Assembly (NCBI RefSeq): GCF_041886205.1
Contig: NZ_CP169029.1
Direction: 5' to 3' (one strand)
Length of the DNA stretch: 64,000 nt
DNA from: Escherichia coli
GTDB taxonomy: Bacteria; Pseudomonadota; Gammaproteobacteria; Enterobacterales; Enterobacteriaceae
Part shown: one piece after another, positions 21,545 through 47,038 of the stretch
How positions within the stretch are numbered: the first letter of the stretch is position 1
Layout: every line of letters begins with the position of its first letter
Position numbers and translations under genes: made by a program
The notes under the pieces: generated by a model
Databases searched by the model: none
Seen by the model: the letters and a program-made list of their open reading frames with translations, nothing else
Told to the model about the DNA's origin: nothing

Positions 21545-21682
21545 CGTGTAATGGCTGCATGAAATAAACAATAAAATATAAATAACATTATCAGCCTGCT
21601 GACGGCTTGAAGAGAGTCACAGTATCTTGTGCAACATTATTGGAAAGAGTGAGGGGCGAGGTAGCGAAGTGGAAAAATGTTA

Positions 21683-21787
21683 AAAAAAAGCCCATCGTGG
21701 GAGATGGGCAAAGACTACACACAGCAATTCGTTGTTTCACTCAGGGGATTTCCATGCTTATAAATCAATATGTTGATTTATAACCGT
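21683..21787 (-). ncRNA. rprA: RprA small RNA (RpoS translational activator)
   Basis: Reverse complement reads ACGGTTATAAATCAACATATTGATTTATAAGCATGGAAATCCCCTGAGTGAAACAACGAATTGCTGTGTGTAGTCTTTGCCCATCTCCCACGATGGGCTTTTTTT, recognised as RprA with its terminator; lies between ydiL and ydiK as in K-12. Confidence 0.8.
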
Positions 21788-27036: not shown

Positions 27037-27225
27037 ATGTCTACTCAACTTGATCCCACCCAGCTGGCCATTGAATTTTTACGCCGTGACCAGAGCAATC
27101 TTTCACCTGCCCAATATCTCAAACGTCTGAAACAACTAGAACTTGAATTTGCTGACCTGCTTACTCTCTCTTCTGCTGAATTAAAAGAAGAAATCTACTT
27201 TGCCTGGCGTCTGGGCGTGCATTGA
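27037..27225 (+). CDS. ydiH: Small protein YdiH (62 aa)
   Basis: MSTQLDPTQLAIEFLRRDQSNLSPAQYLKRLKQLELEFADLLTLSSAELKEEIYFAWRLGVH, from the internal Met of ORF 26956..27225. Confidence 0.65.
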   Translation: MSTQLDPTQLAIEFLRRDQSNLSPAQYLKRLKQLELEFADLLTLSSAELKEEIYFAWRLGVH

Positions 27226-27419
27226 TCCTGACTTAATGCCGCAAGTTCGCCAAATCGACCTGGATTAACCTCCGTCCAGGTTCGATGACCTTCTTAATAC
27301 TGCTTATCTACCGCCTGATATTGTTCAAAAATAATACTAATCGCAGTTTGTGTTAAAACGGCGGGTTAGCTTTATGAGATTATTCTTATCGCCCCTTCAA
27401 GAGCTAAGCCACTGAGAGT

Positions 27420-27490
27420 GCCGGAGATAAGCGCCGGATGGGGTAGAAACCCTTAAGCCTGTGTCGCACAGACTTAAGGGTTTTCTTATT
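27420..27490 (+). ncRNA. Candidate small RNA ending in an intrinsic terminator (possibly rydB)
   Basis: Hairpin aaacccttaag ... cttaagggttt followed by tcttatttc at about 27451-27489; K-12 encodes RydB between ydiH and sufA. The RydB sequence itself is not recalled, so identity is inference. Confidence 0.35.
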
Positions 27491-27710
27491 TCTGAACGCT
27501 GCACTTTTTTACCTATCTCTTAAATAGTCATTTTCAATACAACTTTTTCTTTTTCATCACAGCCTTAATGCTCCTTAGATAATAACCATTATCTAACAAT
27601 GAGATACCTAATTCTTAGCGTGCCTGTTAACCCACACATCAGGGTCTATGCTTATTAAAAGCAGGCAAAAAGCATGTTTTACGGTAAAGCCCCTGCGTTT
27701 GCTGGGTTGA

Positions 27711-27729
27711 ACTGATAATCATTATCACT
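27711..27729 (+). promoter_or_regulatory. Fur box in the suf promoter
   Basis: actGATAATCATTATCac about 50 bp upstream of sufA ATG, close to the Fur consensus GATAATGATAATCATTATC; the suf operon is a known Fur target. Confidence 0.55.
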
Positions 27730-27772
27730 AACATGCTGTTATACGCTGAAAGCGATGAAGTGAGGTAAATCG

Positions 27773-28141
27773 ATGGACATGCATTCAGGAACCTTTAACC
27801 CACAAGATTTCGCCTGGCAAGGCTTAACGCTGACACCCGCAGCGGCGATACACATCCGTGAGCTGGTGGCAAAGCAGCCGGGTATGGTCGGCGTGCGCTT
27901 AGGCGTGAAGCAAACGGGCTGCGCGGGCTTTGGCTATGTGCTCGACAGTGTTAGCGAGCCGGACAAAGACGATCTGCTGTTTGAACACGACGGCGCGAAG
28001 CTGTTTGTCCCGCTGCAAGCGATGCCGTTTATTGATGGCACGGAAGTCGATTTCGTTCGTGAAGGACTTAATCAGATATTCAAATTTCACAACCCTAAAG
28101 CCCAGAATGAATGTGGCTGTGGCGAAAGCTTTGGGGTATAG
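27773..28141 (+). CDS. sufA: Fe-S cluster A-type carrier SufA
   Basis: 122-aa ORF with C-terminal CGCGESF motif. Confidence 0.95.
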
Positions 28142-37227: not shown

Positions 37228-37467
37228 CCATTCAGGATGAGGCGGTAAGCTTCATCCTGATATTCTTGCTTCAGTTGCGGTCCAGTTAATCATTCTAAAT
37301 AACAACTGCTGAAATTATACGAATTGCGGTATGTATTTTAATTTATAACGATAATATTATTTTTATTTTCTGCAATGAACGTCACAAATAATTGTCGCTT
37401 AAGTTAAATTTATTTTAAATGATAATAAATATCAGTTCACTTATAATTTCTTGCTTTGTAATTTTAA

Positions 37468-45415: not shown

Positions 45416-46306
45416 TCAGGCTGCCAGATCATCGTTTCCGATGGAAGCATAATAAGCTTTTTCTGCTTCTGCCGGAGGAGTATGGCCCAGCCTTTCCAGC
45501 AATCGTCGATTGTTATACCAGTCCACCCACGTGAGTGTGGCCAGTTCCACTTCTGCACGGTTTTTCCAGCTCTTACGGTGTATTACCTCCGCTTTGTAAA
45601 GACCATTGATGCTCTCCGCCATCGCGTTGTCATACGAGTCGCCTGTACTTCCTGTTGATGCCAGTAATCCGGCTTCCTTAAGCCGCTGTGTGTAGGCCAG
45701 CGATACATACTGAGAACCTTTATCACTGTGATGGACCGTGCCGGACGGTCGACGGGCCCATAACGCCTGCTCCAGTGCATCCAGCACGAATGTCGTTTCC
45801 ATGGACGATGAGACCCGCCACCCCACGATGTATCCGGCAAACACATCAATGATGAACGCCACATAGACGAAGCCCCGCCATGTGCTGACGTAAGTAAAAT
45901 CAGCCACCCACAGCTGGTCAGGTCGTTCTGCCACGAACTGACGGTTTACGCGGTCGCCTGCGGCAACGGCTTTCCGGCTGATGGTCGTACGGACCTTTTT
46001 ACCCCGGAGAACACCGGCAAGTCCCATAACCGCCATGAGACGTGCCACAGTGCATCTGGCCACTCTGATACCTTCCCGTAACAACTGACGCCAGACTTTA
46101 CGCACACCGTATACCTTGTGATTTTCATCGTATACGCGCTGTATCTCTTTCTTCAGCCAGTCATCGCGCTGCGCACGGGCACTGCGTTTATCCGGATGAT
46201 GTCGCTGTTGCTGACAGTGGTAATACGTTGACGGGGCAATATGCAGTTCGCTGCATAGCGGTCCGACCCCGTACTGCTCACGCAGCTTATCCAGCAGTGG
46301 CATCAT
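45416..46306 (-). CDS. IS629 OrfB (DDE integrase-core transposase; normally fused to OrfA by frameshift)
   Basis: 296-aa ORF containing a DDE-type integrase core (WVADFTYV..., ...HSDKGSQY...). Confidence 0.9.
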
Positions 46307-46629
46307 TTTTTCCAGAGGCGGTCGAACTCCGCCTTCGCAAAATAAGCGGAAGCCTGGCGAAGGATATCGTTACTGCGGCGCAGTTCACGATTTTCACGTT
46401 CCAGCTCTTTCAGACGCTGACGTTCAGCGGTGGTGAGCCCTCCATCACCGCCCCCGGTATCCCGCTCATGCTGGCGAACCCAGACACGCAGAGTCTCCGG
46501 CGTACAGCCAATCTTTGGAGCAATGGAACAAATTGTCGCCCATTGTGAGTCATATTCGCTCTGACTTTCCAGAACCATACGGACTGCCCGTTGACGGACT
46601 TCGGGGGAAAAACGAGTATTTTTAGTCAT
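46303..46629 (-). CDS. IS629 OrfA (HTH transposase subunit)
   Basis: 108-aa [63 protein letters not shown]... Confidence 0.9.
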
Positions 46630-46880
46630 CCTGTTTACCTCTTTCTCAGGAAGTTTAGTCTCCAGGATTCCCGGGGCGGTTCAAATCGACTCAGCAAGCG
46701 GTTTAAGCTGCTCAGCCATTGCGTCGCCAAATGGGCCATTAAAAGCAAAATGAAGTTGTAACAAAGTTGCCATAGCGATTCTCCTTCTGATAACGCATAC
46801 GAAGACAGTGTAAATCTTTTAACGTATTGGATACAGAGAAGAAACAGAGGGAAAAAGGAGAAGACCAGATTAAGAAAATC

Positions 46881-46957
46881 TGGTGCGTCCGAGTGGACTC
46901 GAACCACCGACCCCCACCATGTCAAGGTGGTGCTCTAACCAACTGAGCTACGGACGC
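46881..46957 (-). tRNA. valW: tRNA-Val (anticodon GAC)
   Basis: rc = GCGTCCGTAGCTCAGTTGGTTAGAGCACCACCTTGACATGGTGGGGGTCGGTGGTTCGAGTCCACTCGGACGCACCA; cloverleaf and CCA end present. valV/valW assignment between the two copies is uncertain. Confidence 0.93.
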
Positions 46958-46961
46958 AGGA

Positions 46962-47038
46962 TGGTGCGTTCAATTGGACTCGAACCAACGACCCCCACCA
47001 TGTCAAGGTGGTGCTCTAACCAACTGAGCTATGAACGC
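46962..47038 (-). tRNA. valV: tRNA-Val (anticodon GAC)
   Basis: rc = GCGTTCATAGCTCAGTTGGTTAGAGCACCACCTTGACATGGTGGGGGTCGTTGGTTCGAGTCCAATTGAACGCACCA; 4-nt spacer to the second copy. Confidence 0.93.

What the first reader, a model, noticed from the sequence alone, without database searches (positions are those of the whole stretch)
27226..27772. Long ydiH-sufA intergenic region with two Fur-like boxes and a terminator-ended candidate sRNA
The ~550-bp spacer carries a near-consensus Fur box (GATAATCATTATC at 27714-27726) about 50 bp upstream of sufA, a second Fur-like element (agataataaccattatct around 27567-27584), and a strong intrinsic terminator at ~27451-27489 that does not obviously belong to a protein gene. 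K-12 encodes the sRNA RydB in this interval, so the terminator may mark its 3' end. The suf promoter is known to integrate Fur, OxyR, IscR and IHF.
Basis: partly seen in the sequence, partly recalled or inferred. Interest (0 to 1): 0.2.

Follow-up and report, generated by a model that had tools for sequence, protein, structure and literature searches.

The report
Known RydB sRNA and suf promoter
This spacer is the well-studied E. coli K-12 ydiH-sufA region: it holds the known small RNA RydB with its hairpin, and the known iron- and oxidant-controlled suf promoter with one real Fur site, not two.

Summary
The 547-bp spacer is 100% identical to E. coli K-12 MG1655. Rfam's rydB model (RF00118) hits 27391-27451 (+) at 81.6 bits against a cut-off of 50. 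The K-12 record annotates rydB at the equivalent of 27379-27446.

The hairpin is real: stem 27447-27483, U-rich tail to about 27493, -22 kcal/mol, z = -5.7. It follows RydB at the same place in Escherichia, Citrobacter, Salmonella, Leclercia and Silvania, and 10 of its 16 pairs show compensatory changes. Published Term-seq, however, puts the only abundant 3' end at C27451. That is 8 nt after RydB's closing stem and 5 nt inside the hairpin's 5' arm. No 3' end was called at the U-tract. The hairpin is therefore most likely rydB's terminator and an insulator for the suf promoter, removed from the mature 61-nt RNA.

The proximal Fur box (27713-27727) is a perfect 7-1-7 consensus, the best Fur match in the 64 kb, and lies between the inferred -35 and -10 of PsufA. 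The second "Fur-like" element is really at 27577-27594, 10 nt off the stated position. It scores at background level. Only its right arm is conserved, and that arm abuts the IHF core.

All of this is already known, so interest is low.

The parts
27037..27225 (+). ydiH CDS (62 aa), the upstream flank of the spacer
   Evidence: The ORF list contains MSTQLDPTQL...; the K-12 annotation names b1685 ydiH; the spacer is 100% identical to K-12.
27254..27286 (+). Hairpin 29 nt after the ydiH stop. It could be a ydiH 3' stabiliser or a weak terminator. The following sequence is not U-rich.
   Evidence: Folds at -16.5 kcal/mol, z = -4.6, 0 of 200 shuffles as good. No Term-seq 3' end is listed for ydiH.
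27375..27383 (+). Inferred rydB promoter: extended -10, TG-A-GATTAT
   Evidence: The motif TGAGAtnAT is conserved 8-9 nt upstream of GCCCC in type-A RydB copies, even where the further flanks differ completely. This is inference only; no TSS data could be read.
27391..27451 (+). Mature RydB sRNA (61 nt). Closing stem P1 is CCCC 27392-27395 / GGGG 27440-27443, enclosing two internal hairpins, followed by the 3' tail UAGAAACC.
   Evidence: Rfam RF00118 scores 81.6 bits (gathering 50), E = 9e-18, full model 1-61. Term-seq 3' end is 1764708(-) = C27451 with 2.2-4.1 million reads. P1 covaries at all 5 pairs across 47 family members.
27379..27446 (+). rydB as annotated in the K-12 MG1655 record (b4430, 68 nt). 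It is offset from the Rfam and Term-seq boundaries by 12 nt at the 5' end and 5 nt at the 3' end.
   Evidence: NC_000913.3 1764713-1764780(-), mapped to the window through the 100%-identity alignment.
27447..27493 (+). Hairpin (stem 27447-27483: 11 bp, a C·A mismatch, 5 bp, 3-nt loop) plus a U-rich tail. It is the probable rydB intrinsic terminator and an insulator in front of the suf regulatory region.
   Evidence: Folds at -22 kcal/mol, z = -5.66. 16 pairs, 10 of them with compensatory double changes in 19 orthologues. 64 of 104 RydB-like genes have a hairpin within 12 nt.
27512..27546 (.). Conserved block CCTATCTCTTAAATAGTCATTTTCAATACAACTTT. This is the far-upstream OxyR site region (ORE-I).
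   Evidence: Nearly invariant between Escherichia and Citrobacter. A far-upstream OxyR site is described in PMC8593673. The position -236..-197 is recalled from Lee et al. 2004 and was not read here.
27577..27594 (.). It is most likely the A/T-rich 5' flank of the IHF site.
   Evidence: Exact position. Fur score 11/14 and 13/19, which is background. The left arm is lost in Citrobacter while the right arm CATTAT is kept.
27594..27606 (+). Probable IHF core TAACAATGAGATA
   Evidence: It aligns column for column with AATCAATGCATTG in Citrobacter, which matches WATCAANNNNTTR at 9/9. The E. coli sequence itself scores 7/9. IHF is required for OxyR activation of suf (PMC8593673).
27640..27661 (.). 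Unexplained, almost invariant block CAGGGTCTATGCTTATTAAAAG, at about -100 to -80 from the sufA TSS
   Evidence: GGTCTATGCTTA is 100% conserved in all 15 Escherichia and Citrobacter sequences. I could not assign a factor to it.
27686..27711 (.). IscR type-2 site region AAAGCCCCTGCGTTTGCTGGGTTGAA, overlapping the -35
   Evidence: GCCCCTGC...GGGTTGAA is conserved. PMC12594620 cites PsufA mutations at -56..-51 and '-50 C to G' that disrupt IscR control. With the TSS at 27741, position -50 is C27691.
27707..27741 (+). Core PsufA: -35 TTGAAC (27707-27712), Fur operator TGATAATCATTATCA (27713-27727; the 19-mer runs to 27732), -10 TAACAT (27729-27734), and the inferred TSS A27741
   Evidence: The Fur box scores 14/14 and 16/19, the best in the 64 kb. 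It is invariant apart from two single-base variants across 15 genomes. Fur represses suf. The TSS 32 nt upstream of the ATG is recalled from Lee 2004 and agrees with the '-50 C' check.
27762..27775 (+). sufA Shine-Dalgarno GAGG (27762-27765) and start codon ATG (27773-27775)
   Evidence: Sequence; ORF 27773-28141 encodes [13 protein letters not shown]...; K-12 b1684 sufA.

Best explanation
The spacer contains two known, independent units.

(1) The rydB gene. An extended -10 promoter (TGAGATTAT, 27375-27383) starts transcription at about G27391. The RNA folds into a compact structure: a closing stem CCCC/GGGG encloses two hairpins, and the unpaired nucleotides are highly conserved. Transcription most likely stops at the hairpin plus U-tract immediately downstream (27447-27493), giving a precursor of about 100 nt. 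The hairpin is then removed, leaving the very abundant 61-nt RydB that ends at C27451, 8 nt past the closing stem. The same hairpin keeps transcription from the strong rydB promoter, and from ydiJ-menI-ydiH, out of the suf control region, which begins less than 20 bp downstream.

(2) The sufABCDSE promoter. OxyR binds far upstream (about 27512-27546). IHF binds at about 27594-27606 and bends the DNA towards the promoter; the A/T-rich palindrome 27577-27594 forms its flank. IscR binds at about 27686-27711. A single Fur operator (27713-27727) lies between the -35 and the -10 and blocks RNA polymerase when iron is sufficient.

Shown here: the identity of RydB, the reality and covariation of the hairpin, the quality and conservation of the Fur box, and the weakness and poor conservation of the distal palindrome.
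Taken from the literature: the 3' end position, and the roles of Fur, IHF, OxyR, IscR and NsrR.
Inferred: the rydB TSS, the precursor-processing step and the insulator role.

The confidence of 0.85 applies to the overall identification. The precursor-processing sub-claim alone would rate about 0.6.
For: -: the spacer is 100% identical to K-12.
- RF00118 scores 81.6 bits at 27391-27451 (+).
- K-12 annotates ncRNA rydB between ydiH and sufA on the same strand.
- Term-seq (Adams 2021, supplementary file 1) lists one 3' end in the spacer, 1764708(-) = C27451, at 2.2-4.1 million reads in the two entries shown. None is listed at the U-tract, ydiH or the sufA leader.
- the hairpin folds at -22 kcal/mol, z = -5.66.
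- 10 of 16 hairpin pairs have compensatory changes, and three species carry a different hairpin at the same position.
- 64 of 104 family members have a hairpin within 12 nt of the closing stem.
- RepRanger tags rydB with a Rho-independent terminator, and Salmonella rydB is annotated at 105 nt.
- the Fur box scores 14/14 and 16/19, the best in the window. The distal element scores 11/14 and 13/19.
- the Fur, IscR and OxyR blocks are conserved across two genera. The palindrome's left arm is not, and a perfect IHF core occupies the aligned position in Citrobacter.
- literature on Fur, IHF, OxyR, IscR and NsrR control of suf.
- the genes downstream of RydB-like copies are heterogeneous and about half are on the opposite strand, so RydB is a stand-alone gene rather than a leader.
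Against: - No RNA 3' end was called at the hairpin's U-tract in the one Term-seq data set I could read. Termination there is therefore inferred and not shown.
- The U-run is interrupted (UUUUCUUAUUU), and the consensus terminator scan missed the site.
- The nuclease that would remove a -22 kcal/mol hairpin is unknown.
- No TSS data for rydB or sufA could be read, because Thomason 2015, Lee 2004/2008 and Outten 2004 are not held.
- The coordinates of ORE-I, ORE-II and ORE-III, and the sufA TSS, rest on my memory of Lee et al. 2004.
- The E. coli IHF core is only 7/9 by consensus, which is background level in this window.
- Fur binding to the palindrome was not tested experimentally.
Confidence: 0.85

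Rival explanations
1. RydB's 3' end at C27451 is made directly, by a pause or a non-canonical termination or release event at the foot of the hairpin, without any longer precursor. On this view the hairpin serves only as a backstop that protects the suf promoter from read-through.
For: Term-seq lists only the 27451 end, at very high counts. The U-tract is imperfect and the consensus scan did not call a terminator. Some family members (Pantoea type D, Mangrovibacter) have no convincing hairpin within 50 nt, so these RNAs can evidently get a 3' end without one.
Against: No known mechanism releases RNA polymerase 5 nt into a not-yet-formed hairpin. The distance of 8 nt from a stable stem is what 3'-exonuclease trimming typically leaves (established knowledge; I could not read the supplement of Dar & Sorek 2018). 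The tight positional conservation and covariation of the hairpin suggest that it is transcribed.
Confidence: 0.15
2. The palindrome at 27577-27594 is a second, low-affinity Fur site. It would cooperate with the proximal operator, for example by Fur polymerisation or looping, or it would compete with IHF and so damp OxyR activation when iron is plentiful.
For: It contains GATAAT and ATTATC hexamers in inverted orientation as a perfect 7-bp inverted repeat. It is kept within most Escherichia species. It overlaps the IHF region, so competition is geometrically possible.
Against: The half-site spacing is 4 bp, not 1 (7-1-7 model) or 7 (19-mer). It scores 11/14 and 13/19, inside the window's background. 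E. albertii breaks three of the symmetric positions and Citrobacter loses the left arm entirely, while the proximal box stays invariant. The papers I read mention a single Fur binding site in PsufA.
Confidence: 0.1
3. RydB plus the hairpin is a cis-acting attenuator or riboswitch-like leader that tunes read-through into suf, rather than a free-standing sRNA gene.
For: The arrangement is an aptamer-like fold with invariant junction nucleotides directly abutting a terminator hairpin. The hairpin's 5' arm ACCCTTAAG resembles RydB's 5' end CCCCTTCAAG, so alternative pairings can be drawn (by eye). Other 'sRNAs' such as SroA turned out to be riboswitch fragments (established knowledge).
Against: sufA has its own complete promoter about 250 nt downstream of the hairpin. 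RydB-like copies sit next to unrelated genes, about half on the opposite strand, and at variable distances from any hairpin. The 3' end is not at the U-tract.
Confidence: 0.03
4. The hairpin is unrelated to rydB. It would be a REP-like or other extragenic palindrome, or a DNA-level protein-binding inverted repeat that happens to sit there.
For: The lower stem AACCCTTAAG/CTTAAGGGTT is almost invariant in sequence across genera, more than a plain terminator needs.
Against: The distance between the two arms varies from 13 to 19 nt, which argues against a fixed dimeric DNA site. The upper stem covaries, which indicates selection at the RNA level. Three species carry an unrelated hairpin at the same place. 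The spacer occurs once per genome at the median (highest 2) in the 5,421 E. coli genomes with a match, so it is not a dispersed repeat.
Confidence: 0.04

Closest known systems
RydB sRNA of E. coli K-12 (b4430; Rfam RF00118; also called tpe7 or IS082)
   Same: The sequence is identical, with the same flanking genes and strand, and it matches the full length of the Rfam model. This is that gene.
   Different: There is no biological difference. The database boundaries disagree: GenBank gives 27379-27446, whereas Rfam and Term-seq give 27391-27451. Salmonella annotates 105 nt, which includes the hairpin.
PsufA regulatory region of E. coli (Fur, IscR, IHF, OxyR, NsrR)
   Same: The sequence is the same. 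A single promoter-overlapping Fur operator, an IscR type-2 site, a far-upstream OxyR site and an IHF-mediated bend are present, as described in PMC8593673, PMC12594620 and PMC4207228.
   Different: Nothing new was found.
sRNAs matured by removal of 3' sequence or derived from longer precursors (for example ArcZ and 3'-UTR-derived sRNAs; established knowledge)
   Same: The abundant species is shorter than the transcription unit implied by the promoter and terminator.
   Different: In those cases the stable product usually keeps the terminator hairpin, which also binds Hfq. Here the terminator is the part that is lost, and RydB is classed as Hfq-independent (PMC3933206).

Membership tests
RydB RNA (Rfam RF00118) | Covariance-model score at or above the curated gathering threshold (50 bits) over the full model | tested here: met
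   81.6 bits, E = 9.2e-18, model positions 1-61 of 61, at 27391-27451 (+).
RydB RNA (Rfam RF00118) | Located between ydiH and sufA on the same strand as both, and matching the K-12 rydB gene | tested here: met
   K-12 features are in the order sufA, rydB, ydiH, all on one strand. The spacer is 100% identical.
RydB RNA (Rfam RF00118) | Closing stem and internal hairpins supported by covariation | tested here: met
   All 5 P1 pairs show compensatory changes in 47 diverse members, and the P2 GCU/AGU stem is conserved. P3 is uninformative because my search pattern fixed its sequence.
RydB RNA (Rfam RF00118) | Expressed as a discrete RNA of about 60 nt | not testable with these tools
   Literature only. 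A Term-seq 3' end lies at C27451 with millions of reads on the identical K-12 sequence. The northern data of Wassarman 2001 could not be read.
Intrinsic (Rho-independent) terminator | Stable stem-loop in the RNA | tested here: met
   -22.0 kcal/mol, z = -5.66, 0 of 200 shuffles as good. Covariation is seen at 10 of 16 pairs.
Intrinsic (Rho-independent) terminator | Uninterrupted U-tract directly after the stem | tested here: inconclusive
   E. coli has UUUU-C-UU-A-UUU, and the first three U residues pair with AAA at the stem base. The consensus scan did not call it. Citrobacter and Salmonella orthologues have 5-7 consecutive U.
Intrinsic (Rho-independent) terminator | RNA 3' ends map to the U-tract | tested here: not met
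   No 3' end at 17646xx(-) appears in any of the three conditions of Adams 2021 supplementary file 1. The only end is 30-40 nt upstream, at C27451. This may reflect rapid processing, so the evidence is weak and does not exclude termination there.
Fur operator (proximal, 27713-27727) | Match to the Fur consensus (7-1-7 TGATAATnATTATCA, or the 19-mer GATAATGATAATCATTATC) | tested here: met
   14/14 and 16/19, the top-scoring site in the 64 kb.
Fur operator (proximal, 27713-27727) | Overlaps core promoter elements and is conserved in orthologous promoters | tested here: met
   It lies between TTGAAC (27707-27712) and TAACAT (27729-27734). Across 15 Escherichia and Citrobacter sequences only two single-base variants occur. 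The promoter hexamers are inferred.
Fur operator (distal palindrome, 27577-27594) | Match to the Fur consensus with correct half-site spacing | tested here: not met
   11/14 and 13/19, within background: 18 positions reach 11 or more of 14, and it is not among the 17 positions that reach 14 or more of 19. The spacing between GATAAT and ATTATC is 4 bp.
Fur operator (distal palindrome, 27577-27594) | Conservation comparable to that of the true operator | tested here: not met
   The left arm is absent in all 9 Citrobacter sequences, and the symmetry is broken in E. albertii.
IHF site (27594-27606 with its A/T-rich 5' flank) | Core WATCAANNNNTTR preceded by an A/T-rich tract | tested here: inconclusive
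   E. coli TAACAATGAGATA scores 7/9, which is background level. The aligned Citrobacter sequence AATCAATGCATTG scores 9/9. The flank ATAATAACCATTATC is A/T-rich. IHF involvement comes from PMC8593673. The footprint coordinates are recalled from memory and were not read.

The most novel reading that the evidence does not exclude
RydB may not be a conventional base-pairing sRNA. On this reading it is one member of a widespread, often multi-copy family of compact structured RNAs in Enterobacterales with invariant junction nucleotides. It would be made as a precursor whose own terminator hairpin is cut off about 5 nt into the stem, leaving an extremely abundant, Hfq-independent 61-nt core. That core would act by binding a protein or small ligand, in the manner of 6S, CsrB or Y-RNA-type RNAs. 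The unusual sequence invariance of the lower hairpin stem would then be a processing signal.
Probability: 0.2. Interest if true: 0.5.

Novelty: already known. Interest (0 to 1): 0.1.

Why it matters
For the scan it matters little. Every element here (rydB, its hairpin, the Fur operator, and the OxyR, IHF and IscR sites) lies in the most studied E. coli strain and is either annotated or published.

The useful outcomes are corrections:
- There is one Fur operator, not two.
- The palindrome is mis-located by 10 nt and belongs with the IHF site.
- Mature RydB ends at the foot of the hairpin, not after it.
- The GenBank rydB coordinates are shifted relative to the Rfam and Term-seq boundaries.

The residual biological question lies outside the finding as written. 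RydB is one of the cell's most abundant small transcripts, belongs to a broad multi-copy family, and still has no established target or partner. How it is matured and what it binds remain open.

Tried and rejected
- The consensus promoter/terminator scan found no terminator and neither real promoter. I set it aside as too strict, because folding and covariation show that the hairpin is real.
- PGAP-annotated E. coli records list no feature in the spacer. Only the curated K-12 record names rydB.
- Two literature searches were wasted: 'rydB' as a word start matched 'Rydberg', and as a whole word it matched the botanical author abbreviation 'Rydb.'.
- The primary papers are not held: Thomason 2015, Wassarman 2001, Lee 2008, Mettert & Kiley 2024 and Seo 2014. 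I therefore read no TSS data, no footprint coordinates and no Fur ChIP-exo peaks.
- The supplements of Beauchene 2015 and Dar & Sorek 2018 are not held.
- A search for Fur + ChIP-exo + sufA returned nothing.
- My automatic closing-stem finder often picked a G·U-rich artefact, UCUUAU/AUGGGG, instead of CCCC/GGGG. I used RNAalifold for the stem instead, and I treat the hairpin-distance numbers as rough.
- I tested the riboswitch/leader idea by clustering the genes downstream of 86 copies. No common family emerged, so I rejected it.
- I considered a bidirectional terminator. The minus-strand hairpin is stable (-26 kcal/mol) but is followed by UUUCUACCCC, and no convergent gene is present, so I rejected this too.
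Full report
**What is in the sequence**

The interval 27226-27772 is the 547-bp spacer between the stop codon of ydiH (62 aa, 27037-27225) and the ATG of sufA (27773). It is 100% identical, base for base, to the ydiH-sufA spacer of E. coli K-12 MG1655. It is present in 5,421 of 5,426 complete E. coli genomes, once per genome at the median and at most twice.

The palindrome AGATAATAACCATTATCT is at 27577-27594, not 27567-27584. The hairpin stem runs 27447-27483: 11 bp, a C·A mismatch, 5 bp and a 3-nt loop. It is followed by UCUUAUUUCU. On its own it folds at -22.0 kcal/mol, against a shuffle mean of -7.6, z = -5.66, with 0 of 200 shuffles as stable. The simple terminator scan did not report it, probably because of the mismatch in the stem and the interrupted U-run.

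**RydB**

A gathering-threshold scan of the whole window against Rfam 15 finds rydB (RF00118) at 27391-27451 on the + strand. The score is 81.6 bits against a cut-off of 50, E = 9e-18, and the hit covers the full model.

The K-12 record annotates ncRNA rydB (b4430) at 1764713-1764780(-), between sufA and ydiH on the same strand as both. Through the identity alignment this maps to window 27379-27446. The gene is there.

**Where RydB ends**

Supplementary file 1 of Adams et al. 2021 (eLife, PMC7815308) lists curated Term-seq 3' ends for MG1655 in three growth conditions. Its only entries for this spacer are at 1764708(-), classed as 'primary' for rydB. The read counts of the two entries shown are 2,174,030 and 4,136,120. 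In the same table the lpp terminator has 0.08-0.18 million reads and the aspV tRNA 3' end has 3.5 million. I checked the table's format against sgrS: the 51st base of each listed sequence is the 3' end.

Position 1764708 is window C27451. This is the last position of the Rfam model. It lies 8 nt after the closing-stem GGGG (27440-27443) and 5 nt inside the 5' arm of the hairpin. No 3' end with a coordinate of 17646xx (the U-tract), 17648xx-17649xx (after ydiH) or 17644xx-17645xx (the sufA leader) appears in any sheet. The supplementary file was stored uncut.

The abundant RydB species is thus about 61 nt and does not carry the hairpin.

**Is the hairpin nevertheless part of rydB?**

Of the 121 matches, 105 are RydB-like, and about 35 lie in the ydiH/menI-sufA context.

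In all suf-linked orthologues (Escherichia, Citrobacter, Salmonella arizonae and diarizonae, Leclercia, Silvania) a hairpin begins 3-5 nt after the closing stem. RNAalifold on 19 of them predicts 16 hairpin pairs, of which 10 have compensatory double changes. The upper stem reads CCUGUG/CACAGA, UCUGC/GCAGA, GCUGU/ACAGC, GUUGU/ACAAC or AUUAU/AUAAU in different species. C. koseri, Citrobacter sp. R56 and Pseudenterobacter carry a completely different long hairpin at the same position. Citrobacter and Salmonella have cleaner U-tracts, with 5-7 consecutive U.

Across the whole family, 64 of 104 copies have a hairpin within 12 nt of the closing stem. This count comes from a rough heuristic. RepRanger's table lists rydB with a Rho-independent terminator (PMC12306157). 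Sittka et al. 2008 annotate Salmonella rydB at 105 nt (PMC2515195), which equals the distance from E. coli's annotated 5' end to the end of the hairpin.

The hairpin is therefore selected at the RNA level and travels with rydB. The most economical reading is that it is rydB's terminator and that the mature RNA has lost it. I could not show the precursor. A tail of 8 nt is the length that 3' exonucleases typically leave beyond a stable stem. That point is established knowledge, not something I tested.

**Likely second role of the hairpin**

The conserved far-upstream OxyR block of PsufA starts at 27512, less than 20 bp after the U-rich tail. RydB is one of the most abundant transcripts in the cell, whereas suf is tightly repressed. 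An efficient stop at this position would keep rydB and ydiJ-menI-ydiH transcription out of the suf control region. This is inference.

**What kind of RNA RydB is**

RNAalifold on 47 diverse family members recovers the Rfam fold. All five pairs of the closing stem P1 show compensatory changes (CCCC/GGGG, UCCCU/AGGGA, AUCCUU/AAGGAU, GUCCCG/CGGGAC). P2 (GCU/AGU) is conserved. P3 is fixed by my search pattern and so is uninformative. The unpaired stretches AGAGCUAA and GAGU and the loop AGAUAAG are nearly invariant.

Rfam's model recognises every non-suf copy I tested above its threshold, so this wider family is already covered. Several genomes have two or more copies (Pantoea, Erwinia, Rouxiella, Serratia, Enterobacter sp. 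JUb54, Raoultella). A -10-like element sits about 7-8 nt upstream of P1 in most copies. In E. coli it is the extended -10 TGAGATTAT at 27375-27383. This implies a start at about G27391, the first position of the Rfam model, rather than the GenBank 5' end at 27379.

The genes downstream of 86 copies fall into many unrelated families, and about half are on the opposite strand. This argues against a cis-acting leader or riboswitch.

The literature describes RydB as:
- Hfq-independent (PMC3933206), with only 2.5-fold enrichment in a Salmonella Hfq co-immunoprecipitation based on 10 reads;
- ppGpp-repressed in Salmonella (PMC3963941);
- paraquat-responsive (PMC2064960);
- a negative regulator of rpoS;

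**The Fur boxes**

The proximal element is a perfect match (14/14) to the 15-bp 7-1-7 consensus at 27713-27727 and matches the classical 19-mer at 16/19 (27714-32, minus strand). It is the best Fur match in the 64 kb by both measures.

It fills the spacer between TTGAAC (27707-27712) and TAACAT (27729-27734). With a TSS 32 nt upstream of the ATG (A27741), recalled from Lee et al. 2004, position -50 is C27691. This agrees with the '-50 C to G' IscR-site mutation cited in PMC12594620. The box and the adjacent CTAACATG are invariant in 15 Escherichia and Citrobacter sequences apart from two single-base variants. Fur repression of suf and a single 'Fur binding site' in PsufA are described in the papers I read.

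The distal palindrome scores 11/14 and 13/19. It is one of 18 positions in the window that reach 11 or more of 14, and it is not among the 17 positions that reach 14 or more of 19. Its GATAAT and ATTATC halves are 4 bp apart, not 1 or 7. Within Escherichia it is mostly kept, but E. albertii breaks three of the symmetric positions.

In all nine Citrobacter sequences the left arm is gone. The right arm CATTAT and the following bases remain and read AATCAATGCATTG, a 9/9 match to the IHF core WATCAANNNNTTR. The aligned E. coli sequence TAACAATGAGATA (27594-27606) matches at 7/9. IHF is needed to bring the far-upstream OxyR site to the promoter (PMC8593673). By my recollection of Lee 2004, its footprint (ORE-II, -156 to -127) spans 27585-27614.

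The palindrome is therefore best read as the A/T-rich flank of the IHF site. A weak Fur interaction is not excluded, and I give it about 0.1.

**Verdict**

It is only half right about the terminator and wrong about a second Fur box. Everything present is already known, so I score interest at 0.1.

The most novel reading that the evidence leaves open concerns RydB's biogenesis and mode of action, not the finding as written: the terminator is removed, the mature RNA is extremely abundant, and the family is broad, multi-copy and has riboswitch-like conservation of its junction nucleotides.

Noticed in passing
L002-L121 (e.g. L020/L021, L028/L029, L033/L034, L055/L056, L061/L062, L083 3518-3587 and 6747-6812): RydB-like RNAs form a broad family across Enterobacterales with several sequence subtypes. 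About two thirds of the copies found are not next to suf, and several genomes carry two or more copies. Rfam RF00118 already recognises them.
   Followed up: partly
window 27451 (K-12 1764708, minus strand): The Term-seq read count at the RydB 3' end (2.2-4.1 million) is comparable to a tRNA 3' end and more than 10 times that of the lpp terminator. RydB is therefore among the most abundant small transcripts, yet it has no established target.
   Followed up: partly
window 27379-27446 versus 27391-27451: The GenBank/K-12 rydB coordinates are shifted by 12 nt at the 5' end and 5 nt at the 3' end relative to the Rfam model, the Term-seq 3' end and the inferred extended -10 promoter.
   Followed up: partly
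window 27640-27661: The block CAGGGTCTATGCTTATTAAAAG, about 80-100 bp upstream of the sufA TSS, is almost invariant between Escherichia and Citrobacter. It does not correspond to any factor site I could assign. An NsrR-like half-site, AAAAGCATGTT (27669-27679, 9/10 on the minus strand by eye), lies just downstream but is not conserved.
   Followed up: no
window 27392-27401 and 27449-27457: The hairpin's 5' arm ACCCTTAAG is a near-repeat of RydB's 5' end CCCCTTCAAG. The hairpin's 3' arm could therefore pair with RydB's 5' end as an alternative. In addition, GGGGU (27440-27444) could pair with ACCCU (27449-27453). No test of alternative folds was done.
   Followed up: no
window 27254-27286: A stable hairpin (-16.5 kcal/mol, z = -4.6) lies 29 nt after the ydiH stop codon and has no U-tract. 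No Term-seq 3' end is listed for ydiH.
   Followed up: partly
window 27556-27583: A sigma-70-like match (ATCACA, 16-nt spacer, GATAAT; 9/12) uses the left arm of the distal palindrome as its -10 hexamer. It is a consensus match only (3 found against 1.5 expected) and is not conserved in Citrobacter.
   Followed up: no
window 37420-37434: A near-perfect Fur 7-1-7 box, TGATAATAAATATCA (1 mismatch), lies in the fumD-ydhY intergenic region upstream of ydhY. It is the second-best Fur match in the window.
   Followed up: partly
L002, L008, L023, L031, L047 and others (Citrobacter); L057, L117: Citrobacter has an insertion of about 1.85 kb between ydiH and rydB. C. braakii and S. enterica subsp. diarizonae have about 1.5-2 kb inserted between the rydB hairpin and sufA. 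The rydB-plus-hairpin unit stays intact while both of its flanks accept insertions.
   Followed up: no
L042 3936-4000 and 4271-4416: In Atlantibacter a RydB-like gene sits about 270 nt from the SraC/RyeA-SdsR/RyeB sRNA locus.
   Followed up: no
L006, L040, L041, L083, L088, L115: Subtype-C RydB copies (Sodalis, Acerihabitans and relatives) are followed by a terminator and then by a conserved stretch, CTCAGAAAAGCGCATCGGCTACTTACCTCCTCG..AGAGGGAGTACAGCAAAGGTTGTCGG, of unknown nature. Rfam reported only rydB in the two of these loci that I scanned (L041, L083).
   Followed up: no
window 8425-8549, 12389-12547, 21680-21787, 46232-46348, 46757-47038, 55630-56020: Other Rfam hits in the window are the Phe leader, STnc540, RprA (minus strand), an ALIL frameshift pseudoknot (insertion-sequence type), two tRNAs with an overlapping HPnc0260 hit that is probably driven by the tRNA, and STnc550.
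   Followed up: no
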